From assembly GCA_964057225.1 (NCBI GenBank), contig OZ059899.1, forward strand, positions 4,154,001-4,218,000: a stretch of DNA of 64,000 bases, read 5' to 3'. Within the stretch, counting starts at the first letter, position 1. Every line of letters starts with the position of its first letter. Of the stretch, positions 22,790 to 40,900 are shown in pieces. Both the position numbers and the translations under genes were made by a program. This DNA comes from Auanema rhodensis (taxonomy: Eukaryota; Animalia; Nematoda). The notes beneath the pieces were generated by a model. It worked only from the letters and a program-made list of their open reading frames with translations. It made no database searches and was not told the DNA's origin.

Positions 22790-22844
22790 GAACCCCAGAC
22801 TTCTCGCATGCAAAGCGAGCGCTCTACCCCTGAGCTATATCCCC
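22790..22844 (-). pseudogene. 3'-truncated tRNA-Ala at the satellite junction
   Basis: First 55 nt of the tRNA are present and cut within the B box (GGTTC|). An A10 run (T10 on the minus strand) and the satellite follow. Confidence 0.9.
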
Positions 22845-23020
22845 ACATTCGACAGAATATATGACTGTGAGTTTGTTCAAACTTGAAGAACCTCTTGATC
22901 AGAAATTTTAGTTGTGAATATTAATTTCCTAATCTAATTTTTCTTTCAATCATTTTGTAAATCTCCTGAAAAAAAAAATATAAAAGTAAAGAACTTGAAG
23001 AATAAAACCAAAACTACTGT

Positions 23021-23092
23021 TGGAGATATGGGGAATCGAACCCCAGACTTCTCGCATGCAAAGCGAGCGCTCTACCCCTGAGCTATATCCCC
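23021..23092 (-). tRNA. tRNA-Ala-TGC: tRNA-Ala(TGC), first complete copy (representative unit)
   Basis: 72 nt: acceptor GGGGATA/TATCTCC plus discriminator A, anticodon arm CTCGC-TTTGCAT-GCGAG, T arm TGGGG-TTCGATT-CCCCA. Confidence 0.96.
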
Positions 23093-23679
23093 ACATTCGA
23101 CAGAATATATGACTGTGAGTTTGTTCAAACTTGAAGAACCTCTTGATCAAAAATTTTAGTTGTGAATATTAATCTCCTAATCTAATTTTTGTTTCAATCA
23201 TTTTGTAAATCTCTTGAAAAAAATATAGAAAAGTAAAGAACTTGAAGAATAAAACCAAAACTACTGTTGGAGATATGGGGAATCGAACCCCAGACTTCTC
23301 GCATGCAAAGCGAGCGCTCTACCCCTGAGCTATATCCCCACATTCGACAAAGTCAATGACTGTGAGTTTGTTCAAACTTGAAGAACCTCTTGATCAGAAA
23401 TTTTAGTTGTGATTATTAATTTCCTAATCTAATTTTTCTTTCAATCATTTTGTGAATCTCCTGAAAAAAAATATAGAAAAGTAAAGAACTTGAAGAATAA
23501 AACCAAAACTACTGTTGGAGATATGGGGAATCGAACCCCAGACTTCTCGCATGCAAAGCGAGCGCTCTACCCCTGAGCTATATCCCCACATTCGACAAAG
23601 TCAATGACTGTGAGTTTGTTCAAACTTGAAGAACCTCTTGATCAGAAATTTTAGTTGTGAATATTAATTTCCTAATCTA

Positions 23680-24016
23680 CGTTCCGTTATGCTCTCACGT
23701 CGATCCTATAGACCAATAAAGCCTACAAGATGAGTGTGATAGTATTCCAGATGAAGCGGTAGTTAAAGAGCATAGTGGATAAACATAAGACTCGAGAAAG
23801 AAAGGTTTATTATGTCTACATGATTACAATAAGTTATATAAGTCTACATAAAGATATAAAGTGAAAGAGACCTAAGAAAGGAAGACCAACCATCCATAGT
23901 CATTCCATAAGGCAAAGCTGAAGTCTGTGTTCCATATGAAGGGCGTGTCGTCCTCTCTCAGCCTCATGTCGTCTGATTCTAACCCGCCTGCTACGTATTG
24001 ATTTCCGAATGGAACG
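23680..24016. mobile_element. 337-bp insertion, probable solo LTR of a second LTR-retrotransposon family
   Basis: Flanked by 4-bp direct repeat TCTA (23676-79 / 24017-20). Ends are CGTTCC...GGAACG. Size and purine-rich layout resemble the LTR of the full element, but the sequence differs. Confidence 0.8.
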
Positions 24017-24215
24017 TCTAATTTTTCTCTCAATCATTTTGTAAATTTCCTGAAAAAAAAAGTGAGTTTGTTCAAACTTGAAGAACCTCTTGATCAAAAA
24101 TTTTAGTTGTGAATATTAATCTCCTAATCTAATTTTTGTTTCAATCATTTTGTAAATCTCCTGAAAAAAAATATAGAAAAGTAAAGAACTTGAAGAATAA
24201 AACCAAAACTACTGT

Positions 24216-24287
24216 TGGAGATATGGGGAATCGAACCCCAGACTTCTCGCATGCGAAGCGAGCGCTCTACCCCTGAGCTATATCCCC
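24216..24287 (-). tRNA. tRNA-Ala-CGC: tRNA-Ala(CGC) anticodon variant
   Basis: Plus strand GCATGCGAAG replaces GCATGCAAAG, giving loop TT-CGC-AT. The rest of the gene is consensus. Confidence 0.85.
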
Positions 24288-27200
24288 ACATTTGACAGAA
24301 TATATGACTGTGAGTTTGTTCAAACTTGAAAAACCTCTTGATCAAAAATTTTAGTTGTGAATATTAATTTCCTAATCTAAGTTTTCTTTCAATCATTTTG
24401 TAAATTTCCTGAAAAAAAATTTATAAAAGTAAAGAACTTGAAGAATAAAACCAAAACTACTGTTGGAGATATGGGGAATCGAACCCCAGACTTCTCGCAT
24501 GCAAAGCGAGCGCTCTACCCCTGAGCTATATCCCCACATTCGACAAAGTCAATGACTGTGAGTTTGTTCAAACTTGAAGAACCTCTTGATCAGAAATTTT
24601 AGTTGTGAATATTAATTTCCTAATCTAATTTTTCTTTCAATCATTTTGTAAATTTCCTGAAAAAAAATTTATAAAAGTAAAGAACTTGAAGAATAAAACC
24701 AAAACTACTGTTGGAGATATGGGGAATCGAACCCCAGACTTCTCGCATGCAAAGCGAGCGCTCTACCCCTGAGCTATATCCCCACATTTGACAGAATATA
24801 TGACTGTGAGTTTGTTCAAACTTGAAAAACCTCTTGATCAAAAATTTTAGTTGTGAATATTAATTTTCTAATCTAATTTTTGTTTCAATCATTTTGTAAA
24901 TCTCCTGAAAAAAAATATATAAAAGTAAAGAACTTGAAGAATAAAACCAAAACTACTGTTGGAGATATGGGGAATCGAACCCCAGACTTCTCGCATGCAA
25001 AGCGAGCGCTCTACCCCTGAGCTATATCCCCACATTCGACAGAATATATGACTGTGAGTTTGTTCAAACTTGAAAAACCTCTTGATCAAAAATTTTAGTT
25101 GTGAATATTAATCTCCTAATCTAATTTTTGTATCAATCATTTTGTAAATCTCCTGAAAAAAAATTTATAAAAGTAAAGAACTTGAAGAATAAAACCAAAA
25201 CTACTGTTGGAGATATGGGGAATCGAACCCCAGACTTCTCGCATGCAAAGCGAGCGCTCTACCCCTGAGCTATATCCGCACATTCGACAGAGTTAATGAC
25301 TGTGAGTTTGTTCAAACTTGAAGAACCTCTTGATCAAAAATTTTAGTTGTGAATATTAATTTCCTAATCTAATTTTTTTTTCAATCATTTTGTAAATCTC
25401 CTGAAAAAAAATTTATAAAAGTAAAGAACTTGAAGAATAAAACCAAAACTACTGTTGGAGATATGGGGAATCGAACCCCAGACTTCTCGCATGCAAAGCG
25501 AGCGCTCTACCCCTGAGCTATATCCCCACATTCGACAGAATATATGACTGTGAGTTTGTTCAAGCTTGAAGAACCTCTTGATCAAAAATTTTAGTTGTGA
25601 ATATTAATTTCCTAATCTAATTTTTTTTTCAATCATTTTGTAAATCTCCTGAAAAAAAATATAGAAAAGTAAAGAACTTGAAGAATAAAACCAAAACTAC
25701 TGTTGGAGATATGGGGAATCGAACCCCAGACTTCTCGCATGCAAAGCGAGCGCTCTACCCCTGAGCTATATCCCCACATTCGACAAAGTCAATGACTGTG
25801 AGTTTGTTCAAACTTGAAGAACCTCTTGATCAGAAATTTTAGTTGTGAATATTAATTACCTAATCTAATTTTTCTTTCAATCATTTTGTAAATCTCCTGA
25901 AAAAAAATATATAAAAGTAAAGAACTTGAAGAATAAAACCAAAACTACTGTTGGAGATATGGGGAATCGAACCCCAGACTTCTCGCATGCAAAGCGAGCG
26001 CTCTACCCCTGAGCTATATCCCCACATTCGACAAAGTCAATGACTGTGAGTTTGTTCAAACTAGAAGAACCTCTTGATCAGAAATTTTAGTTGTGAATAT
26101 TAATTTCCTAATCTAATTTTTCTTTCAATCATTTTGTAAATCTCCTGAAAAAAAATATATAAAAGTAAAGAACTTGAAGAATAAAACCAAAACTACTGTT
26201 TGAGATATGGGGAATCGAACCCCAGACCTCTCGCATGCAAAGCGAGCGCTCTACCCCTGAGCTATATCCCCACATTCGACAGAATATATGACTGTGAGTT
26301 TGTTCAAACTTGAAGAACCTCTTGATCAGAAATTTTAGTTGTGAATATTAATTTCCTAATCTAATTTTTCTTTCAATCATTTTGTAAATCTCCTGAAAAA
26401 AAATATATAAAAGTAAAGAACTTGAAGAATAAAACCAAAACTACTGTTGGAGATATGGGGAATCGAACCCCAGACTTCTCGCATGCAAAGCGAGCGCTCT
26501 ACCCCTGAGCTATATCCCCACATTCGACAGAATATATGACTGTGAGTTTGTTCAAACTTGAAGAACCTCTTGATCAAAAATTTTAGTTGTGAATATTAAT
26601 CTCCTAATCTAATTTTTGTTTCAATCATTTTGTAAATCTCCTGAAAAAAAATATAGAAAAGTAAAGAACTTGAAGAATAAAACCAAAACTACTGTTGGAG
26701 ATATGGGGAATCGAACCCCAGACTTCTCGCATGCAAAGCGAGCGCTCTACCCCTGAGCTATATCCGCACATTCGACAGAGTTAATGACTGTGAGTTTGTT
26801 CAAACTTGAAGAACCTCTTGATCAAAAATTTTAGTTGTGAATATTAATTTCCTAATCTAATTTTTTTTTCAATCATTTTGTAAATCTCCTGAAAAAAAAT
26901 ATAGAAAAGTAAAGAACTTGAAGAATAAAACCAAAACTACTGTTGGAGATATGGGGAATCGAACCCCAGACTTCTCGCATGCAAAGCGAGCGCTCTACCC
27001 CTGAGCTATATCCCCACATTCGACAGAATATATGACTGTGAGTTTGTTCAAACTTGAAGAACCTCTTGATCAGAAATTTTAGTTGTGAATATTAATTTCC
27101 TAATCTAATTTTTCTTTCAATCATTTTGTAAATCTCCTGAAAAAAAATATATAAAAGTAAAGAACTTGAAGAATAAAACCAAAACTACTGTTGGAGATAT

Positions 27201-27849
27201 GGGGAATCGAACCCCAGACTTCTCGCATGCAAAGCGAGCGCTCTACCCCTGAGCTATATCCCCACATTCGACAGAATATATGACTGTGAGTTTGTTCAAA
27301 CTTGAAGAACCTCTTGATCAAAAATTTTAGTTGTGAATATTAATCTCCTAATCTAATTTTTGTTTCAATCATTTTGTAAATCTCCTGAAAAAAAAAATAG
27401 AAAAGTAAAGAACTTGAAGAATAAAACCAAAACTACTGTTGGAGATATGGGGAATCGAACCCCAGACTTCTCGCATGCAAAGCGAGCGCTCTACCCCTGA
27501 GCTATATCCCCACATTCGACAGAATATATGACTGTGAGTTTGTTCAAACTTGAAGAACCTCTTGATCAAAAATTTTAGTTGTGAATATTAATCTCCTAAT
27601 CTAATTTTTGTTTCAATCATTTTGTAAATCTCCTGAAAAAAAATATAGAAAAGTAAAGAACTTGAAGAATAAAACCAAAACTACTGTTGGAGATATGGGG
27701 AATCGAACCCCAGACTTCTCGCATGCAAAGCGAGCGCTCTACCCCTGAGCTATATCCCCACATTCGACAGAATATATGACTGTGAGTTTGTTCAAACTTG
27801 AAGAACCTCTTGATCAAAAATTTTAGTTGTGAATATTAATCTCCTAATC

Positions 27850-28232
27850 CGTTACATATTGTTTCTTCCCGTCTTTTCATGGTCGGAAGATATATGTACT
27901 TCTACCTTGTTCCTTAGGTAGGCAGACCCGAACGCCCCGATTTCCTTATTAAGACAAATACTTAAAGAGAAAAAGATTCATTATCAGATAACAAGAAAAT
28001 ACAATATAAGAATTACATTAAGAAAGAATATAAAGAGATCTAATAAAGTATTAAATAGAGTATATATATATAGATGATATAGAGATGAGACTCACATGGC
28101 TATAAGACAACCTATCTGGGTTAGGCCAGAAGCAAGAGTGCCATGTGTGTCCCATGTTGTGGGCGGGGCTTGTTCAGGCTCCCGCTATTTGAATAGCGCG
28201 CACATGTTTACCATGTGCTTGCAGATGTGACA
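27850..28232 (-). repeat. 3' LTR (383 bp)
   Basis: Matches 37603-37987 except (TA)6 versus (TA)7. Sense-strand ends are TGTCACA...TGTAACG. Confidence 0.96.
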
Positions 28233-28841: not shown

Positions 28842-31800
28842 TCAAGAAATTGTGATAACCGGAATAGATGTTGTCCGTTGGTAAGGTTTGACGAAGTCCT
28901 TGTGTACTCTTCTGCTTTTTCCTTTATCTGTTTGAACCACGACGAAAGATCTTTGAACTGCTGTAACTAAATAAGGCCCTTCGAATGAAGGTGTTAGTTT
29001 GTTTCGAGTAGAATTCACTTTTATCATAACTAAGTCATTAACCTGAATTTCTTTATTTTGTGTTCTATTTCGTGTATTGTACCGTTGTTCATTCTTCTTT
29101 GTGCATGTTTCAATTCTATCTTTTACTATATTAGATGTGCTTTCATTTTGTATTAGCGATCTATTGACAAAATCTTCTGTAGGATTGGCTGGTTCTTCAG
29201 TTTGAAGATTATTTCCAGGCAATTGATGGTCAATAGGAAGTCTTGCATCCCGACCAAATAATACAACATATGGACTAATAGATGTTGATGAGTTTGGTAA
29301 CGTATTGATCGCAAACATAACTTTAGGTAGGTGTATATCCCAGTTAGTTTGTTGTTCATTCACGAATGAAGAGAGAGCTTCTTCTAAAGTTCTATGAAGT
29401 CTCTCAACTTGTCCATTAGCATTTTTATGATATGGTAGCGTAGTAGTGTGTTTAATTCCAAATTGTTTACACATAGCTTGAAATTCAGATGACAAAAAAC
29501 TACTACCATTATCGGTTATCATACTCATTGGTGGTCCATATATGAAAACAAATCTAATCACAAACGCTTTTGTGATTTCAGTAGCTGTTTGTGTTATTAA
29601 TGGGCAAGTTGTTCCCCATTTACTAAAAGCGTCTTGAATACTCAAGATGTATCGATGTCCATCATTAGTGCGAGGTAAAGGACCTAGTATATCTACATGA
29701 ATACGATCAAATGGCTTTTCGGGTATAACAAATCTTCCCATAGGTTGAATATACGATTGGTGTGGGTTAGATTTCCTACTTGCACATTTTGTACAACGAT
29801 TAATAAATTCAGTTATTTGTGGAACCATATTAGTCCAAAAGAATCGTCGTCGAATCGCATCAGTAGTTTTATTTATACCTAGGTGTGCACCAATTTTGGA
29901 ATCTTCATGAAAAAACTTGATAACAACATCAGTTATTTTGTCGTTACGAGGCAAAATAATAGATCGTTTCAAATAATTTTTCGCTTGTTTTGCATGTAAT
30001 ATGCCTTCTCGTTCTTCATACCGGTCTGATATATTAGCCGGACAGTTATCATTATTAATTTGAGAAAGTGCTTCGCGAATCCAGGGAACTCCAGCTTGAA
30101 CTTTCCGTATTTCTTCACAATTTAGTTGGTCAATAGAAGAAATAGTTGTGATATGAGCAATAAAAGCATCAACAGGTTTTACTTTGTCCTTTGGTTTAGT
30201 AGGACGACTGTCATTTGCTTCGTTTCCTATATACCTGGAGAGAGCATCACAGACACTGTTTAATTTGCCAGGACGATATTCAATCTTTATGTTGAAATCT
30301 TGTATCATTAGTTGATACTTGGCTAATCTACCTATGAGATCTTTACGCGACATTAAACTGGTTAATGGTCGGTGATCTGTGATAACTATGGTAGGTACTC
30401 CTAATACATAGGTACGGAATTGTTGAAGAGCAAAGACTAAACCGAGTGCTTCAACTTCAATAGGAGGATATTTCCGTTCCGCTGGAGTCAACTTTCTACT
30501 AGCGAACGCAATCGGGTGTAATGGAGAATTTTTCTCTGCTGATTGCAATAAAACTGCTCCCACAGCGATCATACTGCCATCACTTTCTATAACAAAAGGT
30601 TGGTCTGCTTTAGGAGGTTTCAGTACAGGGGCAGTACACAGTAATGTTTTTAAAGTTTCAAATGCGTCTGCATGTTCCGATTTCCACTCAAAAGGAGTAT
30701 CCTTATGTGTTAACTTATACAATGGCTCAGCTATTCCGGCATAATTTTGAATAAACCGTCGAAAATAGTTAGTCATACCTAGAAAGGATCTGACAGCCGT
30801 AACTGTGCTTGGATTTGGAAATTCGGAAACAGCCTGTATTTTAGCAGGATCTGGTTTAACACCATTTCTACCTATTATAAAACCCAAAAACTTTACTTCA
30901 GTGGCTGCAAAGCAACATTTAGATAACTTAATTTTTAACCCTAGTTCAGTGACCTTTTTCAGCACTTCTTGTATATCTCTTAAATGTTCTTCAGCTGAGT
31001 TCGAAATTATTAGCAAATCATCTAGATATACAAACAGTTTGCATCTAACAAGAGATTGCAAGTATCGTACTGCGGATTGAAAAGTGTGTGGCGCTCCACA
31101 CAATCCCATAGGCATTCGGCAATACTGATAGGTACCTGATGGAGTGGTAAAAGCAGTTAGGTGTCTATCTGAGCGTTTCAACGGTATTTGGAAGAAACCA
31201 GAAATGAGATCAAAATTCGAAAAGAACTGAGCTCCAGCCGCTACGTCTATGATATCAGGAATGTGTGGGATGCTGTATGTTTGTTTCTTAGTAACACTAT
31301 TCAATGCTCTAAAGTCAGTAACGAACCGGAAAGAATTATCTTTCTTTTTCACAAGAACAACCGGACTAGTGAAAGTAGCCGTCGAATTTTCGATTATACC
31401 TTGCGACAACATTTCTTTCACTTGCCGTTCTACTTCTTCTTGCTTACCCAATGGTACTCTGTAAGATCTACTTTTTGGAAAATCCATATCGGATCTTATA
31501 GGAATGGCATGTTCAACTGGTCCGCAAAAGAGACCAATATTATGATCATGGTTGAAAAATGCCGTTTGGTTTTCCTTAATGATTGTGATCAGATTTTTCT
31601 TCATTTTATGGGACAGAGTGCAAGAATTGAAGTTCAAATCATCCAAAAGATGCTGAGGAAAAGTTGGTAACTTATCTTCCCAATCAGCTTCAGGTGGAAC
31701 ATAATCGTTCATAATTTCTTTAGATGCTATAAGTCCTGAACCAATGTGGTCATTTTTATTAATTTTAATTGGCTTTGAAGAATTGTTTGATACTACCATA

Positions 31801-34800
31801 GTAATAGGAAAAGGTCCTATGGCGGCATCTGGAATTGAGATAGGACCTGTGCTAGATTTTAAAAGAGCATATTGATCAAAATCTAATTCTGGTCCTGTTT
31901 GCAAAGATATGTGGGAGGTACTATGTGGTGGAACTGTTACTGTGGACAAACTTATGATATTTACTGTTTTAGTTGTGGTTTTATATGCAAAACAACCAGG
32001 TTTTACTAAGGGTGTTTCCATATTACCAACAATCAACTTTCCTTTACATAGTTTTAATGTAGTAAATATCTCTCTTTCTTCCAACGTACGCATAAAATCA
32101 GTACCAAGTAACATTTGTCCTGGACAGTCATTGTCTTCAGATATTAAAAATTCGTGTTCCACTTGGTAACCTGCTATACCCACATCTAACTTGCATTTTC
32201 CCACAAAGCGAAACTCTGATCCATTTGCAGTGGATGCAGATTTAGAATATTTTGTAAAATATTGTCTTCCAATATATGCCAATGTGGAGAACGGAATATA
32301 TGAGACAGTAGCTCCAGAATCCCATAATGCTAACAGTCCTCTACCTTCAATGTCAATATGAACAAACGGTAACAAGTGTCCATTTTTCTTTGTTGTTGTG
32401 TGACATACAAAAGGTATGGCTAAAGGAATGTAAGTTATGATGGTGGGAAAATAGCTCCGCATCAATTCATCACTAACTGTTTCATGAATCTCATCTCCCT
32501 CAAGTGGTGGAGCTGTTGGGCTCAACATGATATGGTTTATTTTTAACATAGAAGTAGGGGAGAGATAACATTTTATAGTGAAATATAATGCTATCATTAG
32601 ACATAATATCAGAGTTATACAACCGATGGTAATGAGTGTTCGTTCAATTGAACCTATACAAAAGTCAATGAACAGATCCCAATTGGAGAAAACAATTTTC
32701 CTGGCATCTCTTATAAGTTTACTTCCTTTCAAGATGAAAGAGGAAATTTGAGGCCAATCATGTGAACGAGAAATTACGCGGAGAAGATCATGGTGAGGGG
32801 AAGTAGATAAACTATAACCATAAGTTAATCCAATAGATAGGGCTAAGGATTTTTCAGTCGAATTTTCAAACAAATTCCGCCCTGTGAATCGAAGTTTACT
32901 CAATTCAGCATAATGATCATGTTTTTCTGAATGAATACTATCTACTTTATGTGTGTCACCTTTATAATCTCTCCATGTTCCATTTTCATACCAAATCTCT
33001 GTCTCTTTGTGTTCACAATTGATCTCATGTCCTTCAGTGCTCAAATCGTAGCTATCGATAGGAGCAAAGAATAATTGTTTATCGTGTGTTAAAACAGGGG
33101 TCTCTGCGTAACATTTATCATTGTAAGAATGATTACGATAAATGAAATGTGGTTCTATTTCCTGACAAGTTGTTATTTTTAAAACATTTCTTCCAACAAA
33201 TCGGGCAACGATATCATCCCGCTGAAGCATAGCTCTTACTCCTATTGTAGGATGTATACGTAATATAGCTTGCCAGCTTTTTACAGTTTCCATTTGAGAT
33301 TTACAGATGGTATGAAACTGTTGATGAAATTCGTCAATTATGGAGAGACGCGCTTTCTCAAACCCATAATTCAACTTATTATCTATTATCGTTTTAGTTT
33401 TATGCTCTGATTTGTGGAGAACATTGTCATATACTTCTGCTACATACAACTCTCGACCTCTCTCGTACGCATTAGGGGTAGGAGTTGTTAAACTACGAAT
33501 TGTAGTTTTGGTGGCAGTTATTGGGGTTACAGTAGTATGATGTACCATATTTTTATCAGTTGTAATTTGAGTTTTAACCCAACTTATAAATTCTAAAACT
33601 TCTGTTTTATTGAATTTAGGATTTTCCTGTGGGTATTCGATGGACTGTGGAGGAAATCCATAATATGCTGTACTATTCTTTGTATAAAGGTTGTGATAGT
33701 CAGGCAGCTTGGATATAATTGCTAAATCTTGCTCTTGGTTGTTTCTAACAGTAGCATCAGCTTTTTGTTGTCGACTGACTTGCATGTCACGAGATATTTG
33801 TTCTTTTCCCGATTGTTGTTGGATCATGAATAACATGCCTTGAGCAGTTGCAATAATTTCAGATTGATTCATATTTCCACTGCGTGGTAATATAGATGGA
33901 TATAAGGCTCTTGCCAACTGTTCAATTGATGGAACTGTTTGTGTACCATCAAGAATTGTGGCTTGATATACTACTGCGTGAGCCATTCCTCGAAAGAAAT
34001 CTTCTATGGATGTTGTAGATTTCATCAAAGATCTTTTTAACCGAGGAACTTCTATACGACGAGCTACTTGAGTGATAAGATCATCCAATTTCATGCTATT
34101 AATCATCTGTCTAGTAGCCAGTTTAATTTCCTCTATACCCATACATTGTAAAATCAAAAGATTGGGATCTTTGAAATTATTAGACTTCGCCCAGTTAGTT
34201 ATGTGATCTTTTGTCAATCCTAAACTAACAATTGTGTCAATGAACAGTGGATTATCTATCGCGAATTGGAGCAAACTCTCATAAGATGATGTAGCTGCAT
34301 ATCTCATATATTTTGCGTAAAACTTAGTGATAGATGCAGATCCAAAAATGAAAGTAGGTCTTAGAAATGGAAACGCATATGGTTGGGATTTCGCATTAAC
34401 AAAAAGATAATCATCACTGAAAGACCGATGTTTTTGAGGTAATGCATTACGTTTATTTCTGCGTCTATCAGCATTAAGCAAAGTATTGGAAAGATCAAGC
34501 AAATTATAAACACGGGGATGTGCTGTGAATCGGATAATTGCCTCAGAAGATGATTCAAAAACAGCGAATTCGAAACAAGATTGAACGTGAGCGGATGTGG
34601 AATGATTTTGGAGAACAAAAGCGCTTTCAATAGAGTGAACTAGAAGAATATGATCACCCAACATGGCGGAGAAGGGGCCAAGTTTTTGATAGTGACAGAC
34701 AACTGATGGGATAGGTGGTTGCCAGATAACTGCACCTTCACCAGTTGCACAAAACCCTTCATTTCCTTTACAATTATCAGTATTTATAAATAAGTCTGAT

Positions 34801-35636
34801 ACAATGTGATCTTCTTTCAATCTAGTTATTATCCCTCGTTTCAATACAAATTGTTCAATTTCTACACATTCTTCAGTGGACCAAGAGCGAGTTGGATTAT
34901 GCTCGTTTAATGGTGTTTCAAAAACTGAATGCTGTTGGGCATTTATGATTTTATCATTCCACATACGATTTCTATGTGCTCGAACACAATCTTTCTTATC
35001 TACTGTTTCAATATGAGAGAATGTGGTGTTACGATCTCTCAAAAACATGAAATCTCTCACACAGCTTTTATACTTTTTCACATAGCATTTCCATGCTTCC
35101 CATGACTCTATCTCAGCCTTTGGTAGATATATTTCTACCTCAACACTGTGAGCCTTTTCAATTTCTGCCTTATGGCAGCCTGTGACCACAGGAGGTGTTA
35201 CTAATATACCCCCTTCAGATTGAGCGCAAATCTGATATTTTGCCGACCCAAAGGGAAGGCATGAGAGTGCCAATAAAGTCAGGCACAACGTGACCGGTGG
35301 CATGAATGGGGTCGCTACGCTGTATACCCTTGAGTTACCATTCCCATTGGCTGATGGTCTTTGTCTTCTTGGGGAACTAGGCCTAGGGTTCCAAGACGAG
35401 CTATTGGCATTTCTGCCATTCGCAAATGGGCGGTTTCCCGGGTTAGGACGCCTATTCATATTCCCGTTCTGCGAGTTATTATTCTTATAACGTACGGCAG
35501 AAGGTCGCTCTCTCTCTCGCTCATAATCATTAGAGCCATTATTGTGCTGAGTCCAGTTATTATTTTTTTTTATTATTTTTATTATTTTTATAATTTTTAT
35601 TATTATTATTATTCCTACTTCTTTCTCTTTCTTCAC
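28842..35636 (-). CDS. env-pol: Env-Pol polyprotein ORF (2264 codons): basic N/R-rich segment, signal peptide, glycoprotein, TM, protease, RT, RNase H, integrase
   Basis: Uninterrupted ORF. The listed start is GTG inside the gag overlap, so it is probably entered from gag or from an internal ATG such as 35303. Confidence 0.93.
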   Translation of the reverse strand: MKKEKEVGIIIIIKIIKIIKIIKKNNNWTQHNNGSNDYERERERPSAVRYKNNNSQNGNMNRRPNPGNRPFANGRNANSSSWNPRPSSPRRQRPSANGNGNSRVYSVATPFMPPVTLCLTLLALSCLPFGSAKYQICAQSEGGILVTPPVVTGCHKAEIEKAHSVEVEIYLPKAEIESWEAWKCYVKKYKSCVRDFMFLRDRNTTFSHIETVDKKDCVRAHRNRMWNDKIINAQQHSVFETPLNEHNPTRSWSTEECVEIEQFVLKRGIITRLKEDHIVSDLFINTDNCKGNEGFCATGEGAVIWQPPIPSVVCHYQKLGPFSAMLGDHILLVHSIESAFVLQNHSTSAHVQSCFEFAVFESSSEAIIRFTAHPRVYNLLDLSNTLLNADRRRNKRNALPQKHRSFSDDYLFVNAKSQPYAFPFLRPTFIFGSASITKFYAKYMRYAATSSYESLLQFAIDNPLFIDTIVSLGLTKDHITNWAKSNNFKDPNLLILQCMGIEEIKLATRQMINSMKLDDLITQVARRIEVPRLKRSLMKSTTSIEDFFRGMAHAVVYQATILDGTQTVPSIEQLARALYPSILPRSGNMNQSEIIATAQGMLFMIQQQSGKEQISRDMQVSRQQKADATVRNNQEQDLAIISKLPDYHNLYTKNSTAYYGFPPQSIEYPQENPKFNKTEVLEFISWVKTQITTDKNMVHHTTVTPITATKTTIRSLTTPTPNAYERGRELYVAEVYDNVLHKSEHKTKTIIDNKLNYGFEKARLSIIDEFHQQFHTICKSQMETVKSWQAILRIHPTIGVRAMLQRDDIVARFVGRNVLKITTCQEIEPHFIYRNHSYNDKCYAETPVLTHDKQLFFAPIDSYDLSTEGHEINCEHKETEIWYENGTWRDYKGDTHKVDSIHSEKHDHYAELSKLRFTGRNLFENSTEKSLALSIGLTYGYSLSTSPHHDLLRVISRSHDWPQISSFILKGSKLIRDARKIVFSNWDLFIDFCIGSIERTLITIGCITLILCLMIALYFTIKCYLSPTSMLKINHIMLSPTAPPLEGDEIHETVSDELMRSYFPTIITYIPLAIPFVCHTTTKKNGHLLPFVHIDIEGRGLLALWDSGATVSYIPFSTLAYIGRQYFTKYSKSASTANGSEFRFVGKCKLDVGIAGYQVEHEFLISEDNDCPGQMLLGTDFMRTLEEREIFTTLKLCKGKLIVGNMETPLVKPGCFAYKTTTKTVNIISLSTVTVPPHSTSHISLQTGPELDFDQYALLKSSTGPISIPDAAIGPFPITMVVSNNSSKPIKINKNDHIGSGLIASKEIMNDYVPPEADWEDKLPTFPQHLLDDLNFNSCTLSHKMKKNLITIIKENQTAFFNHDHNIGLFCGPVEHAIPIRSDMDFPKSRSYRVPLGKQEEVERQVKEMLSQGIIENSTATFTSPVVLVKKKDNSFRFVTDFRALNSVTKKQTYSIPHIPDIIDVAAGAQFFSNFDLISGFFQIPLKRSDRHLTAFTTPSGTYQYCRMPMGLCGAPHTFQSAVRYLQSLVRCKLFVYLDDLLIISNSAEEHLRDIQEVLKKVTELGLKIKLSKCCFAATEVKFLGFIIGRNGVKPDPAKIQAVSEFPNPSTVTAVRSFLGMTNYFRRFIQNYAGIAEPLYKLTHKDTPFEWKSEHADAFETLKTLLCTAPVLKPPKADQPFVIESDGSMIAVGAVLLQSAEKNSPLHPIAFASRKLTPAERKYPPIEVEALGLVFALQQFRTYVLGVPTIVITDHRPLTSLMSRKDLIGRLAKYQLMIQDFNIKIEYRPGKLNSVCDALSRYIGNEANDSRPTKPKDKVKPVDAFIAHITTISSIDQLNCEEIRKVQAGVPWIREALSQINNDNCPANISDRYEEREGILHAKQAKNYLKRSIILPRNDKITDVVIKFFHEDSKIGAHLGINKTTDAIRRRFFWTNMVPQITEFINRCTKCASRKSNPHQSYIQPMGRFVIPEKPFDRIHVDILGPLPRTNDGHRYILSIQDAFSKWGTTCPLITQTATEITKAFVIRFVFIYGPPMSMITDNGSSFLSSEFQAMCKQFGIKHTTTLPYHKNANGQVERLHRTLEEALSSFVNEQQTNWDIHLPKVMFAINTLPNSSTSISPYVVLFGRDARLPIDHQLPGNNLQTEEPANPTEDFVNRSLIQNESTSNIVKDRIETCTKKNEQRYNTRNRTQNKEIQVNDLVMIKVNSTRNKLTPSFEGPYLVTAVQRSFVVVQTDKGKSRRVHKDFVKPYQRTTSIPVITIS
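28870..29915 (-). other. Integrase (HHCC, DDE core, GPY/F module)
   Basis: H...H / CTKC zinc finger, HVDILGP, ITDNGSSF, NGQVERLHR, FEGPY. No chromodomain is evident. Confidence 0.95.
30235..30600 (-). other. RNase H domain
   Basis: ESDGS..AVGAVL, AFASRKL..AE..Y...E.EAL, TDHRPL, N.VCDALSR. Confidence 0.94.
30860..31590 (-). other. Reverse transcriptase domain
   Basis: SPVVLVKKKD..RFVTDFRALN, DLISGFFQI, TAFTTP.G.YQY.RMPMGL, YLDD, KFLG. Boundaries are approximate. Confidence 0.96.
32070..32370 (-). other. Aspartic protease domain
   Basis: ALWDSGATVSYI catalytic motif, TANG flap, MLLGTDF terminal motif. Boundaries are approximate. Confidence 0.92.
32575..35303 (-). other. env: Envelope glycoprotein domain, herpes gB-like class III fusogen (within the long ORF)
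   Basis: Signal MPPVTLCLTLLALSCLPFGSA, Cys-rich ectodomain with N-glycosylation sequons, RRRNKR and RLKR sites, gB-like segment KLNYGFEK...ICKSQ...HPTIG...ARFVG..VLKITTC...CYAETPV...EINC, and TM TLITIGCITLILCLMIALYFTI. The family call was made by eye. Confidence 0.82.
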
Positions 35637-36450
35637 TAAAGCTTAATTTATGTTGTAAAGCATTTATGAGCTCCTTCAAGGTGCTGGTGTCTTCATTTCT
35701 TTTCATGAAGCTATTCCGAACGCCTTCTTCAAACCTAGCTAATTTCTTAGCTTGTTCATAAGTGGCGGGGTTTTTAGTTAAAACCGCAATACCCAGTTCC
35801 TCTTTTAAACCATTTAAAAATGCCGTTTTCAACATTGGTTCCCGCTCGGGATCCATTGGTGACATTATGGTGCTTGCCATTCTCTCTAATTCCATACTAA
35901 AATCAAGAACAGATTTATCTCCTTGTTGTACTCGATGAATAAGCGCTATGGTGAAATTTTTATCTGTTTTAGGCGCTAAAAGCTCAGTGAGCTGATCCAT
36001 CAAAACAATCCATGGGCCATTAGTTCTTATGCCACTAGGAATACTATTATACAAGGAGAGAGCTGTTTCATTTGATTCCAAAAGAAGAGGCAAAATTAAT
36101 AGTCTCTCAGGTAAGCTTAGATTCATAACATTAAAAAATCTATTTAAAGATTCAACAAAAGAACGAAAGCTACGAGAGCCGTCATACCTGGGACAGAGAT
36201 GGCAATTCAAAATAGTTGCCATATTTCTAGAGGGTGGAGCAACATTAGAATTAGGAGATGGAGAGGTAGGAGTCATTTTTCTTTCAAAAGCTTTAGTTAT
36301 AGCAGCGGCCCACCGACTTGGTGATCTATTTCGTACTATAGTAGGTGCCCGAGGTGTTTCCTCAGTGATGGCCTTTCTGCTTTTACTTCTCGTTCTAATT
36401 GTTAGAGAAGAAGAGTGAGAAGAAGAAGAGGAATCACCTTCTTCTCTCAA
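35560..36450 (-). CDS. gag: Gag (capsid) ORF. The listed start is TTG; the first in-frame ATG is at 36276
   Basis: Position 5' of pol and retrotransposon capsid-like motifs (PRYDG...F..FV, QQGDKSVLDF..EL, AFLNGL...L, P.TYEQA..LA). No CCHC knuckle is seen. Confidence 0.88.
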   Translation of the reverse strand: MREEGDSSSSSHSSSLTIRTRSKSRKAITEETPRAPTIVRNRSPSRWAAAITKAFERKMTPTSPSPNSNVAPPSRNMATILNCHLCPRYDGSRSFRSFVESLNRFFNVMNLSLPERLLILPLLLESNETALSLYNSIPSGIRTNGPWIVLMDQLTELLAPKTDKNFTIALIHRVQQGDKSVLDFSMELERMASTIMSPMDPEREPMLKTAFLNGLKEELGIAVLTKNPATYEQAKKLARFEEGVRNSFMKRNEDTSTLKELINALQHKLSFSEERERSRNNNNNKNYKNNKNNKKK

Positions 36451-37589
36451 AAATTCAAAAGGAGAGAGGTAGGTGGATGGAGTATTTAAGTTTTTAGAAT
36501 TAAATTCAAAAACTTGGCGTACCTCTGGTGATCCTTGTTCCTGATCTTTGTTTTCCTCGCTGATGTCCGAGTCCGACAGGGTGGCTGGTGAATACAGTTA
36601 GATGAATATAAGAGCGCGTACTGGAAGCAACTAGACTCCAGTAAAAACGTTTGTGACAATGGCGTCTGATGAAGGAGGATCGTTGAAGCTTCAAGCTCCG
36701 CCTCCAGCCATGTGTCACGACACCAGATGTTAGCGCTTATGGTAAACAACCATTGACCGTCTGTCGTGATATTTGAATATTATAATCACTTATGTCAGCT
36801 TAGAGACAAATAAGGAATCACAGATGGTGCCTTAAGCCTGTTTGAAAACTTTTGAATTTTAACAGCTGTTATTGACTACACATGTCGAACAGCTGGTACG
36901 CGTGGGCCAACTATTTGAATGTGAGTAAGCTTAAAGTAAACAAAAATGTCTCATCTCGTATATTAAGTTCAATTTTATAAAGTTTATTAAGATTTGTAGA
37001 AAGAATTTCAAAATAAATCTTAATTAAGATAATTTTTAATTTAATTTCAAAAGATTTAGAAGGTAATTTAAGATTGATATAGGAATTCAAATTCAGTAAT
37101 CTGTCAATAATATAGGAAAAAGGAAACGTTGGCAGACGTAGAGTGGACTTGGGTGGGTAGGAATTTAAATATTCTTATTATCTCTGAACTAATAAGAAAA
37201 GAGTTAACAGGAGTAGAACCCTGATGAACCCTTGGATGTGAATCAAAATCAAAAATCGTAAATAAAATTATCCCAACAGCCTCCAGCTTCCAAACAACTC
37301 AGCTAAAAAGTGAGCTCTGTTGCCACACTGGACATTCACATCATAAAGTAATGAATCAAAATAGCACGCGCGTGCATAACAAAAAGGTAACGCTCGTCAA
37401 AACTATTGTCTGATAGTTTCCCCAAACGTCTCAGACACCTCCCAGTTTTTGTTGAGCGGAGGAGAAGTGGTAGCCAAAATAATTTTTGGGGAAATCATGG
37501 TGCACGGCTCGGTTACTCCTCACTGTTGGGTAATTAAGTCCAAAAGTCTCGTAAACTTCATGTCAATAAATTAACAGTAAAGTAAGCAA

Positions 37590-37602
37590 GGTGGAACCTC
37601 CA
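37590..37602 (-). promoter_or_regulatory. Primer-binding site complementary to the 3' end of tRNA-Gln
   Basis: TGGAGGTTCCACC lies immediately after the 5' LTR. Its complement GGTGGAACCT-CCA is the 3' end of eukaryotic tRNA-Gln as I recall it (not searched). Confidence 0.85.
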
Positions 37603-37987
37603 CGTTACATATTGTTTCTTCCCGTCTTTTCATGGTCGGAAGATATATGTACTTCTACCTTGTTCCTTAGGTAGGCAGACCCGAACGCCCCGATTTCCTT
37701 ATTAAGACAAATACTTAAAGAGAAAAAGATTCATTATCAGATAACAAGAAAATACAATATAAGAATTACATTAAGAAAGAATATAAAGAGATCTAATAAA
37801 GTATTAAATAGAGTATATATATATATAGATGATATAGAGATGAGACTCACATGGCTATAAGACAACCTATCTGGGTTAGGCCAGAAGCAAGAGTGCCATG
37901 TGTGTCCCATGTTGTGGGCGGGGCTTGTTCAGGCTCCCGCTATTTGAATAGCGCGCACATGTTTACCATGTGCTTGCAGATGTGACA
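37603..37987 (-). repeat. 5' LTR (385 bp)
   Basis: Direct repeat of 27850-28232, followed on the minus strand by the PBS. Confidence 0.96.
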
Positions 37988-40900
37988 AATCTAATTTTTG
38001 TTTCAATCATTTTGTAAATCTCTTGAAAAAAATATAGAAAAGTAAAGAACTTGAAGAATAAAACCAAAACTACTGTTGGTGATATGGGGAATCGAACCCC
38101 AGACTTCTCGCATGCAAAGCGAGCGCTCTACCCCTGAGCTATATCCCTACATTCGACAGAATATATGACTGTGAGTTTGTTCAAACTTGAAGAACCTCTT
38201 GATCAAAAATTTTAGTTGTGAATATTAATCTCCTAATCTAATTTTTGTTTCAATCATTTTGTAAATCTCTTGAAAAAAATATAGAAAAGTAAAGAACTTG
38301 AAGAATAAAACCAAAACTACTGTTGGAGATATGGGGAATCGAACCCCAGACTTCTCGCATGCAAAGCGAGCGCTCTACCCCTGAGCTATATCCCCACATT
38401 CGACAAAGTCAATGACTGTGAGTTTGTTCAAACTTGAAGAACCTCTTGATCAGAAATTTTAGTTGTGAATATTAATTACCTAATCTAATTTTTCTTTCAA
38501 TCATTTTGTAAATCTCCTGAAAAAAAATATATAAAAGTAAAGAACTTGAAGAATAAAACCAAAACTACTGTTGGAGATATGGGGAATCGAACCCCAGACC
38601 TCTCGCATGCAAAGCGAGCGCTCTACCCCTGAGCTATATCCCCACATTCGACAGAATATATGACTGTGAGTTTGTTCAAACTTGAAGAACCTCTTGATCA
38701 GAAATTTTAGTTGTGAATATTAATTTCCTAATCTAATTTTTCTTTCAATCATTTTGTAAATCTCCTGAAAAAAAATATATAAAAGTAAAGAACTTGAAGA
38801 ATAAAACCAAAACTACTGTTGGAGATATGGGGAATCGAACCCCAGACTTCTCGCATGCAAAGCGAGCGCTCTACCCCTGAGCTATATCCCCACATTCGAC
38901 AGAATATATGACTGTGAGTTTGTTCAAACTTGAAGAACCTCTTGATCAAAAATTTTAGTTGTGAATATTAATCTCCTAATCTAATTTTTGTTTCAATCAT
39001 TTTGTAAATCTCCTGAAAAAAAATATAGAAAAGTAAAGAACTTGAAGAATAAAACCAAAACTACTGTTGGAGATATGGGGAATCGAACCCCAGACTTCTC
39101 GCATGCAAAGCGAGCGCTCTACCCCTGAGCTATATCCCCACATTCGACAAAGTCAATGACTGTGAGTTTGTTCAAACTTGAAGAACCTCTTGATCAGAAA
39201 TTTTAGTTGTGAATATTAATTACCTAATCTAATTTTTCTTTCAATCATTTTGTAAATCTCCTGAAAAAAAATATATAAAAGTAAAGAACTTGAAGAATAA
39301 AACCAAAACTACTGTTGGAGATATGGGGAATCGAACCCCAGACTTCTCGCATGCAAAGCGAGCGCTCTACCCCTGAGCTATATCCCCACATTCGACAAAG
39401 TCAATGACTGTGAGTTTGTTCAAACTAGAAGAACCTCTTGATCAGAAATTTTAGTTGTGAATATTAATTTCCTAATCTAATTTTTCTTTCAATCATTTTG
39501 TAAATCTCCTGAAAAAAAATATATAAAAGTAAAGAACTTGAAGAATAAAACCAAAACTACTGTTTGAGATATGGGGAATCGAACCCCAGACCTCTCGCAT
39601 GCAAAGCGAGCGCTCTACCCCTGAGCTATATCCCCACATTCGACAGAATATATGACTGTGAGTTTGTTCAAACTTGAAGAACCTCTTGATCAGAAATTTT
39701 AGTTGTGAATATTAATTTCCTAATCTAATTTTTTTTCAATCATTTTGTAAATCTCCTGAAAAAAAATATAGAAAAGTAAAGAACTTGAAGAATAAAACCA
39801 AAACTACTGTTGGAGATATGGGGAATCGAACCCCAGACTTCTCGCATGCAAAGCGAGCGCTCTACCCCTGAGCTATATCCCCACATTCGACAGAATATAT
39901 GACTGTGAGTTTGTTCAAACTTGAAGAACCTCTTGATCAAAAATTTTAGTTGTGAATATTAATCTCCTAATCTAATTTTTGTTTCAATCATTTTGTAAAT
40001 CTCTTGAAAAAAATATAGAAAAGTAAAGAACTTGAAGAATAAAACCAAAACTACTGTTGGAGATATGGGGAATCGAACCCCAGACTTCTCGCATGCAAAG
40101 CGAGCGCTCTACCCCTGAGCTATATCCCCACATTCGACAAAGTCAATGACTGTGAGTTTGTTCAAACTTGAAGAACCTCTTGATCAGAAATTTTAGTTGT
40201 GATTATTAATTTCCTAATCTAATTTTTCTTTCAATCATTTTGTGAATCTCCTGAAAAAAAATATAGAAAAGTAAAGAACTTGAAGAATAAAACCAAAACT
40301 ACTGTTGGAGATATGGGGAATCGAACCCCAGACTTCTCGCATGCAAAGCGAGCGCTCTACCCCTGAGCTATATCCACACATTCGACAGAAAATATGACTG
40401 TGAGTTTGTTCAAACTTGACGAACCTCTTGATCAAAAATTTTAGTTGTGAATATTAATCTCCTAATCTAATTTTTGTTTCAATCATTTTGTAAATCTCTT
40501 GAAAAAAATATAGAAAAGTAAAGAACTTGAAGAATAAAACCAAAACTACTGTTGGAGATATGGGGAATCGAACCCCAGACTTCTCGCATGCAAAGCGAGC
40601 GCTCTACCCCTGAGCTATATCCCCACATTCGACAAAGTCAATGACTGTGAGTTTGTTCAAACTTGAAGAACCTCTTGATCAGAAATTTTAGTTGTGATTA
40701 TTAATTTCCTAATCTAATTTTTCTTTCAATCATTTTGTAAATCTCCTGAAAAAAAATATATAAAAGTAAAGAACTTGAAGAATAAAACCAAAACTACTGT
40801 TGGAGATATGGGGAATCGAACCCCAGACTTCTCGCATGCAAAGCGAGCGCTCTACCCCTGAGCTATATCCCCACATTCGACAGAATATATGACTGTGAGT

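What the first reader, a model, noticed from the sequence alone, without database searches (positions are those of the whole stretch)
32575..35240. Envelope appears to be a herpesvirus gB-like class III fusion protein
Seen: 33380-33010 encodes KLNYGFEK...FHTICKSQ...WQAILRIHPTIGVRAML...ARFVGRNVLKITTCQEI...CYAETPV...DLSTEGHEINC. By eye this parallels the gB central helix and domain IV pattern (QLQF.YD...AWC..Q...LW....NP..I....ARMLGDV.AVS.C...CYSRP.V...L......E.C). The N-terminal Cys-rich part has candidate bipartite fusion loops (DFMFL, RSW). Established: gB-like envs occur in some invertebrate retroelements (e.g. Ascaris Tas) and in chuviruses. Inference: a captured viral fusogen that is still intact.
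Basis: partly seen in the sequence, partly recalled or inferred. Interest (0 to 1): 0.8.

Follow-up and report, generated by a model that had tools for sequence, protein, structure and literature searches.

The report
Nematode retroelement with class III envelope
A freshly inserted retrovirus-like jumping gene, likely of a nematode, carries an unbroken gene for a protein predicted to fold like herpesvirus gB, set between its capsid and enzyme genes; that layout is already published, but this copy adds a large insert and a likely budding signal in the envelope tail.

Summary
Confirmed, and a known kind. The motifs are real. They lie in the envelope part of one 2266-codon env-pol frame of a young, full-length Ty3/gypsy element (gag-env-pol order, near-identical LTRs) inserted in a tRNA-Ala array. 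A family profile hits herpes gB (E 6e-15) and rabies G (1e-5); the AlphaFold model matches prefusion gB (Z 12.7, 388 residues); 14 of 16 cysteines are conserved. It is not herpes gB itself: the best viral fold matches are negative-strand RNA virus glycoproteins, and the capture is old. The layout is published for nematodes (Chary and Hayashi, eLife; citing Sacco 2022), and this scan saw it on flatworm DNA. Not found in what I could read: (1) a PTAP motif in the envelope's cytoplasmic tail, present in 7 of 79 relatives' tails against 0.28 expected, suggesting ESCRT-driven budding; (2) a ~340-residue helical insert with two furin-type sites between domains II and III; (3) a deleted derivative with GT-AG ends in 8 of 8 runs; (4) a likely CUG start; (5) two insertions 90 and 92 bp upstream of tRNA genes. 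Fusion, trimer and budding are untested.

The parts
37603..37987 (-). 5' LTR, 385 bp, TG...CG ends
   Evidence: 383 of 383 aligned bases identical to the 3' LTR, one 2-base gap in a (TA)n run
37591..37602 (-). Primer-binding site, tRNA-Gln type
   Evidence: directly behind the LTR; same 12 bases as the Gln PBS of Clat_errantivirus_4 and Ctro_errantivirus_1 in the eLife supplement
35560..36597 (-). gag frame, 345 codons stop to stop; candidate CUG start at 36579 in a GCCACC context; first ATG only at 36276
   Evidence: Retrotrans_gag E 2.6e-4 and Ty3_capsid E 3.9e-3, both below cut-off; frames and ATGs; unspliced contigs keep the CTG
35553..35626 (-). A-rich low-complexity repeat where gag and env-pol frames overlap; the two are in different frames in this copy
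   Evidence: one contig of run X1 spans it with a different length (table 8)
28842..35642 (-). One open frame, 2266 codons: gag C-terminal-like basic stretch, env, protease, RT, RNase H, integrase
35241..35303 (-). Internal signal-peptide-like hydrophobic stretch in front of the ectodomain
   Evidence: hydropathy; no signal-peptide predictor was run
34470..35240 (-). Env domains I and II (fusion domain and PH-like domain), 10 conserved cysteines
   Evidence: pLDDT 83-98; residues 28-260 align to HSV gB 140-461, Z 11.1, rmsd 7.0, 218 aligned; profile hits rabies G 53-183, E 1.6e-5
35040..35054 (-). Candidate fusion loop 1 (DFMFL)
   Evidence: turn between two long strands in the model; hydrophobic columns
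34881..34889 (-). Candidate fusion loop 2 (RSW)
   Evidence: W aromatic in 43 of 54 rows
34449..34466 (-). Furin-type site 1 (RRRNKR) at the end of domain II
   Evidence: basic sites at the same place in P0002, P0003, P0010 (by eye)
33441..34448 (-). ~340-residue, mostly helical insert between domains II and III, with a second furin-type site (RLKR, 34043-34032) and a Thr-rich end
   Evidence: low model confidence; 26% identical over 251 residues to the Auanema relative P0002; relatives' linkers have a median of 38 residues
33015..33470 (-). Env domain III central helix and domain IV, 4 conserved cysteines
   Evidence: helix 591-662, pLDDT 83-96 from residue 601
32570..32639 (-). Transmembrane helix
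   Evidence: best hydropathy window 2.63
32508..32519 (-). PTAP motif in the cytoplasmic tail between anchor and protease (candidate late domain)
32420..36522 (-). 4103-base stretch with GT...AG ends that is missing from a derivative of the element
   Evidence: joint in 8 of 8 runs laid; donor and acceptor context
32088..32360 (-). Aspartic protease (LWDSGA)
   Evidence: PF13975 E 4.3e-7
30294..31352 (-). Reverse transcriptase (YLDD) and RNase H
   Evidence: PF00078 E 6e-35, PF17917 E 7e-31
29427..29936 (-). Integrase zinc finger and core
   Evidence: PF17921, PF00665
28233..28244 (-). Polypurine tract
   Evidence: sequence
27850..28232 (-). 3' LTR, 383 bp; 4-bp target duplication AATC at 27846-27849 and 37988-37991

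Best explanation
This is the unbroken envelope gene of a young Ty3/gypsy retroelement, likely of a nematode, encoding a protein predicted to be a class III membrane-fusion protein that would be made within one gag-env-pol polyprotein. Shown: the element, the gene order, the open env-pol frame, the homology to gB and rhabdovirus G, the conserved cysteines. Inferred: Gag stays in the cytoplasm, the internal signal threads the ectodomain into the ER, the anchor stops transfer and returns the tail, protease, RT and integrase to the cytoplasm; signal peptidase and the element's protease separate the parts; furin cuts after domain II, and the insert acts as a cap or is released; the PTAP in the tail recruits ESCRT-I so that particles bud with Env; the trimer then fuses with a target cell through its two hydrophobic loops. 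The envelope was gained long ago and has stayed with this pol lineage under purifying selection.
For: Fold: profile to gB E 5.8e-15 and rabies G E 1.4e-5; all 40 listed Foldseek PDB rows are gB; VIA Z 12.7, rmsd 8.3, 388 aligned to prefusion EBV gB. One polyprotein in the family: of 150 relatives, 33 have gag upstream in the same protein, 50 protease or RT downstream, 16 both. Topology: two hydrophobic stretches flank the ectodomain. Selection: 25 silent, 16 changing, 0 stop among the 41 differences listed within the frame; 13 of 22 silent in env (rough test, tables were cut to the best-supported rows). Late domain: P[TS]AP in 7 of 79 relatives' tails (query not counted), shuffle mean 0.28, highest 3 in 5000; 7 permuted tetramers 0; carriers only 32-45% identical in env. 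Youth: LTR identity and target duplication.
Against: No fusion, trimer, cleavage or budding was tested. 72 of 79 tails lack P[TS]AP, including most of the closest env relatives (P0003, P0005, P0006, P0013, P0036), so it cannot be required across the family. In this copy gag and env-pol are in different frames. The single protein scores below the gB Pfam cut-off and does not hit PF24664. Whole-model TM-scores are low (0.12-0.28) because 260 of 866 residues are under pLDDT 50. Some relatives are gene predictions and may contain artificial joins. No raw RNA reads were available; the two guessed-RNA runs laid show little or no env, which contigs cannot turn into a statement on expression.
Confidence: 0.85

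Rival explanations
1. The class III envelope is real but is not used for infection between cells or animals; it is kept for an intracellular role (anchoring capsid assembly to membranes, passage through germline syncytia), and PTAP only sorts or degrades Env through endosomes.
For: Most relatives lack PTAP; no particles or infection are shown in the parts I read of the eLife survey; deleted derivatives without env are amplified alongside the full element.
Against: Both fusion-loop positions stay hydrophobic across 50-odd relatives at about 20-25% identity, which a mere anchor would not need.
Confidence: 0.25
2. This genomic copy is already dead or helper-dependent (gag and env-pol out of frame, no AUG for gag); only other copies of the family are active.
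For: Frames differ at 35553-35626; a contig of run X1 has another length there; no in-frame ATG near the start of gag.
Against: The break sits in an A-rich repeat, where assembly slips and programmed frameshifts both occur; the CTG is shared by unspliced contigs of other runs, so it is not decay of this copy; LTRs are still identical.
Confidence: 0.35
3. The gene was taken recently from a herpesvirus or a chuvirus.
For: Best PDB matches are herpes gB, but PDB holds no nyamivirus or chuvirus glycoprotein among the listed rows.
Against: No close viral relative: nearest proteins are other retroelement envs at 23-31%; env and RT trees both place it beside Caenorhabditis elements; best viral fold matches are 8-12% identical.
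Confidence: 0.03
4. The 4103-base deletion is a recombination product whose GT...AG ends are chance, not a reverse-transcribed spliced RNA.
For: It stands in DNA runs; 2 bases fit either side; a second join in the same contig (32377 to about 29085) has no splice ends; the join is out of frame with pol.
Against: Canonical ends by chance are about 1 in 100 (my arithmetic, three registers); donor reads AG|GTAC and the acceptor follows a pyrimidine run.
Confidence: 0.2

Closest known systems
GAG-ENV-POL, HSV/gB-type Ty3/gypsy 'errantiviruses' of nematodes (Chary and Hayashi, eLife, PMC13524379; first reported by Sacco et al. 2022 according to that paper)
   Same: Gene order, gB-type ectodomain between signal and anchor, two fusion loops, Gln primer site (8 of 36 nematode rows are Gln, 2 with the same 12 bases). 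Its nearest relatives P0003 and P0007 resemble the row Clat_errantivirus_4, group C1 (by eye).
   Different: Three peptides of this env are not in the seven supplements (gapped rows and cut cells could hide them). The main text has no hit for PTAP, ESCRT, late domain, budding, CUG, splicing, frameshift, polyprotein or non-autonomous, and I saw no account of a domain II-III insert. Sacco 2022 could not be read and may cover some of this.
Glycoproteins of negative-strand RNA viruses (Beihai rhabdo-like virus 3, Midway nyavirus, xinmo-, chu- and rhabdoviruses; Pfam PF24664)
   Same: Top fold matches in the viral library (E 9e-19, 1e-15); 16 of 19 relatives scanned hit PF24664, 14 above its cut-off; the N-terminal half matches rabies G.
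   Different: 8-12% identity; the window's own protein does not hit PF24664; encoded inside a retroelement polyprotein.
Herpesvirus glycoprotein B
   Same: Domain order, long central helix, domain IV, cysteine positions, furin site in the domain II-III linker (the last recalled).
   Different: Below the Pfam cut-off; no PH1/PH2 Pfam hit; 10-13% identity in structural alignments; shorter domains I-II; long helical insert; no partner genes such as gH/gL.
BEL/Pao elements with gB-like env (Ascaris Tas; relatives P0033, P0049, P0070)
   Same: Same env family occurs there (Tas per PMC9094657).
   Different: Those have env after integrase and BEL/Pao marker domains; this element has env before protease, YLDD and no such domains.

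Membership tests
Class III viral fusion proteins | Elongated beta fusion domain with two hydrophobic loops | tested here: met
   model strands 31-79 and 124-142 with loops at both motifs; conserved hydrophobic columns; profile hit to rabies G 53-183
Class III viral fusion proteins | PH-like domain II following domain I | tested here: met
   residues 28-260 align to HSV gB 140-461, Z 11.1, rmsd 7.0, 218 aligned
Class III viral fusion proteins | Long central helix (domain III) and beta crown (domain IV) | tested here: met
   helix 591-662 then strands; profile E 5.8e-15 to gB
Class III viral fusion proteins | Conserved cysteines at gB positions | tested here: met
   14 of 16 ectodomain cysteines are conserved in 78-100% of rows with a residue; three align with KSHV gB cysteines; five profile cysteines align with HSV-2 gB cysteines, the two N-terminal ones in a stretch not significant alone. 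The pairings were not read from the model.
Class III viral fusion proteins | Type I membrane topology (signal, ectodomain, one C-terminal anchor) | tested here: met
   hydropathy only
Class III viral fusion proteins | Homotrimer | not tested
   three full copies exceed the size limit; a cut-down job would pass by likeness to gB
Class III viral fusion proteins | Membrane-fusion activity | not testable with these tools
   needs a bench assay
Herpesvirus gB proper (PF00606) | Score above the Pfam cut-off and a herpesvirus genome context | tested here: not met
   21.7 bits against 43; none of 19 relatives reaches 43; context is a retroelement
Monjiviricetes fusion protein family (PF24664) | Score above the Pfam cut-off | tested here: inconclusive
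   no hit for the window's protein; 14 of 19 relatives pass
Ty3/gypsy GAG-ENV-POL gB-type errantiviruses | LTRs, primer site, polypurine tract; PR-RT-RH-IN order | tested here: met
Ty3/gypsy GAG-ENV-POL gB-type errantiviruses | env between gag and pol, gB type | tested here: met
Ty3/gypsy GAG-ENV-POL gB-type errantiviruses | Host among nematodes, bryozoans or flatworms; nematode C1 cysteine pattern | tested here: inconclusive
   host is not given; all 15 relatives looked up that carry an organism name are nematode (14 others have no organism); C1 pattern compared by eye only
BEL/Pao (Tas-like) elements | YVDN-type RT motif, Peptidase_A17 / DUF1759 / DUF5641, env after integrase | tested here: not met
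   YLDD; none of these domains; motif per PMC9094657

The most novel reading that the evidence does not exclude
Nematode gag-env-pol elements are true budding enveloped viruses built like an alphavirus-style single polyprotein: Env was slotted into the end of Gag so that a p6-like PTAP late domain now sits in Env's cytoplasmic tail and recruits ESCRT, the domain II-III linker is a swappable cargo slot (helical module here, mucin-like in others) that furin uncaps, and this family starts at CUG, sheds spliced parasites of itself and prefers a site about 90 bp upstream of tRNA genes.
Probability: 0.3. Interest if true: 0.75.

Novelty: new member of a known kind. Interest (0 to 1): 0.42.

Why it matters
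The headline (a gB-like envelope in an invertebrate retroelement) is published, so by itself it adds one more young, unbroken example. What could matter is the mechanism: whether these elements ever leave the cell is open in the parts of the literature I read. A late-domain motif enriched about 25-fold in the envelope tails of distant relatives is a first, cheaply testable sign that they bud through ESCRT. The variable insert shows a place where a class III fusogen tolerates and keeps 150-490 extra residues, which bears on how such proteins gain receptor-binding or shielding parts.

Tried and rejected
No whole genome is held for the window, so copy number and other insertion sites could not be counted. 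Word-based homologue searches with the env found nothing; the exhaustive search did. The insert stays unexplained: no Atlas hit, only P0002 in a capped search of longer proteins, no PDB sequence hit, two weak Pfam hits, model pLDDT 41, best fold Z 6.4 to generic three-helix bundles; none of this shows a new fold. Profile-profile comparison of 15 insert groups gave one pair above 30% probability, not involving this insert. A ~50-residue helical motif recurs in the inserts of 15 of 29 relatives, but the window's own score is weak (1.6 bits, 6 of 300 shuffles as high) and the seeds were picked by likeness to it, so this is a lead only. My by-eye idea of a UBA or death domain got no support. No related DNA was found in viral contigs, so splice sites and start codons of relatives could not be compared; the metagenome scan was not used. 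The idea that the GT-AG join makes a separate Pol mRNA was rejected: it is out of frame with pol and has no upstream ATG in that frame. Three annotated isoforms of a C. nigoni relative showed no env-skipping form. No RNA holder is on record. A paper for gB disulfide numbering was not found; that numbering is recalled and not used as evidence. The furin count (25 of 86) misses sites just before the projected boundary and was not relied on. PPxY (1 of 79) and YPxL (3 of 79) were also counted in tails and are not remarkable. No complex was predicted. One search was a wrong-frame translation and was ignored.

Full report
What is there. The window is a 351-bp satellite followed by a 248-bp tRNA-Ala array. 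A 10,138-bp LTR element interrupts the array on the minus strand (37987-27850). Its LTRs are identical but for a 2-base gap in a (TA)n run; it has a 4-bp target duplication, a tRNA-Gln primer site and a polypurine tract. It holds a gag frame (36597-35560) and one 2266-codon frame (35642-28842) that reads env, protease, RT, RNase H, integrase. The order PR-RT-RH-IN and the YLDD motif make it Ty3/gypsy. The host is not given; all 15 relatives looked up that carry an organism name are nematode, so a nematode is likely.

The observation. Alone, the protein gives weak but well-placed hits: PF00606 at E 1.6e-4 below cut-off and KSHV gB as best PDB sequence at E 0.06. An exhaustive search found 258 relatives at E <= 0.001, of which 150 were returned. 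A profile from the window's ectodomain and 85 of these (the longest were left out) hits herpes gB structures at E 5.8e-15 over domains III-IV and rabies G at E 1.4e-5 over the fusion domain. The AlphaFold model is confident at residues 1-260 and 601-770 and poor between. Foldseek lists only gB among the 40 PDB rows shown. VIA-align on Foldseek's top 1000 chains gives Z 12.7, rmsd 8.3, 388 aligned, to prefusion EBV gB. In the viral library the first rows are glycoproteins of Beihai rhabdo-like virus 3 and Midway nyavirus, with herpes gB first at rank 10. The Atlas also points to rhabdovirus-like glycoproteins, though with a low recognition value. Fourteen of 16 ectodomain cysteines are conserved, and both candidate loops sit on hydrophobic columns. 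The class III assignment is therefore solid; 'herpesvirus' describes the fold, not the source.

How it is likely made. Of the 150 relatives, 33 have gag upstream of env in the same protein, 50 have protease or RT downstream, 16 have both, and 5 have integrase upstream; Pfam confirms the layout in examples, and BEL/Pao markers in three of the last group. A hydrophobic stretch precedes the ectodomain and another ends it. This fits one polyprotein that crosses the membrane twice, leaving Gag and Pol in the cytoplasm (inference). In this copy gag and env-pol are in different frames and overlap in an A-rich repeat; one contig of another run spans the repeat with a different length. Assembly slip, copy-specific change and programmed frameshift remain open. 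Gag has no ATG near its start; a CTG in a GCCACC context at 36579 is kept in unspliced contigs of other runs, while the deleted derivative differs at this codon. A CUG start is likely, untested. Among 41 listed differences in the env-pol frame, 25 are silent, 16 change a residue and none makes a stop; 8 of 12 in the insert are silent. The tables were cut to their best rows, so this is rough, but it points to purifying selection.

Age of the capture. The RT is sister to a C. japonica element (58% identity, support 100/99; 19 rows). The N-terminal half of env groups with C. brenneri, C. remanei, C. briggsae and C. japonica elements (support 99; 33 rows, quick method). Env has stayed with this pol lineage for a long time, as the eLife survey argues in general.

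The insert. Among 86 relatives with both anchors, the domain II-III linker has a median of 38 residues; 27 exceed 150 and 10 reach 300; here it is 360 by the same measure. It begins after a furin-type site shared with three relatives inspected and holds a second one. Only the Auanema protein P0002 shares it (26% over 251 residues). Other relatives carry unrelated or mucin-like inserts. Its fold and role are unknown. A cap or released peptide is my best guess, by analogy (recalled) with inserts in other viral glycoproteins.

The tail. PTAP lies 17 residues behind the anchor. I saw it in the window first, then counted in relatives: P[TS]AP occurs in 7 of 79 tails with a detectable anchor (6 of 37 followed by a protease, 1 of 42 without), against 6 occurrences in 108,163 other residues. 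Shuffled tails give 0.28 on average and never more than 3 in 5000; seven permuted tetramers occur in none; the carriers are 32-45% identical in env. P[TS]AP as the TSG101-binding late domain is established knowledge (recalled). Against a general role: 72 of 79 tails lack it, among them most of the nearest env relatives.

The derivative. All 8 runs laid, of 15 listed and from 4 studies, hold a joint that skips 4103 bases with GT...AG ends on the element's strand, at depths similar to or above the env contigs (depth is no copy number; one run may be the window's own sample). Six are DNA-type runs, so the joined form exists as DNA. It is out of frame with pol and is linked to a second, non-splice deletion. 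Most likely a spliced RNA was copied back and spread as a non-autonomous element.

What is known. Chary and Hayashi (PMC13524379; I read the abstract, section 5 part 1, sections 6 and 10, found passages, all 36 nematode rows of supplement 1 and the first 15 nematode rows of supplement 2) report gB-type env in GAG-ENV-POL order in nematodes, bryozoans and flatworms, with AlphaFold trimers and fusion loops, and credit Sacco et al. 2022, of which I saw only the citation. Merchant et al. (PMC9094657, passages) note the gB-like env of Tas. Earlier notes of this scan report the same layout on flatworm DNA; none on this sequence. My searches for PTAP in Ty3/gypsy elements, CUG starts, spliced non-autonomous derivatives and tRNA targeting in nematodes listed nothing on these elements; I saw listings only, and the library lacks most subscription papers. 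Figure supplements of the eLife paper could not be viewed and may show inserts.

Verdict. Observation confirmed, interpretation supported with refinements. New member of a known kind. Interest 0.42, carried by the tail motif and the insert rather than by the gB likeness.

Noticed in passing
window 23680-24016: A 337-bp insert with inverted ends (CGTTCC...GGAACG) and a 4-bp duplication TCTA, likely a solo LTR of another family, lies 92 bp upstream of a tRNA-Ala 5' end; the full element lies at 90 bp. Same register by chance is about 5 in 248. LTR copies with other flanks exist (loose ends), so any preference is not exclusive. One search found no paper on tRNA-gene-targeted LTR elements in nematodes among its 2 listings.
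   Followed up: partly
window 22790-27849 and 37988-64000: Tandem array of a 248-bp unit, each with a tRNA-Ala gene: 123 genes in the window, 117 UGC and 6 CGC.
   Followed up: partly
window 1-22782: 351-bp satellite, 65 copies, 98% alike, abutting the tRNA array.
   Followed up: no
window 36523/32419 and 32377/about 29085: A short non-autonomous derivative: both joins lie in one contig (X13 record 9); further deletion joins in pol appear in single runs. Cer1 of C. elegans makes a regulator from a spliced RNA (PMC10309623, passages), but the join here gives only a short frame.
   Followed up: partly
window 37000-37600: The 5' untranslated leader between LTR and gag is about 1 kb, with several short ATG frames.
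   Followed up: no
P0027, P0095, P0122, P0008: These relatives carry Ser/Thr-rich (30-46%), mucin-like inserts at the same place in env; P0009 and P0029 share another insert.
   Followed up: partly
P0033, P0049, P0070: The same env family sits after integrase in BEL/Pao elements and does not form one group in the env tree, hinting at exchange between superfamilies; support is weak.
   Followed up: partly
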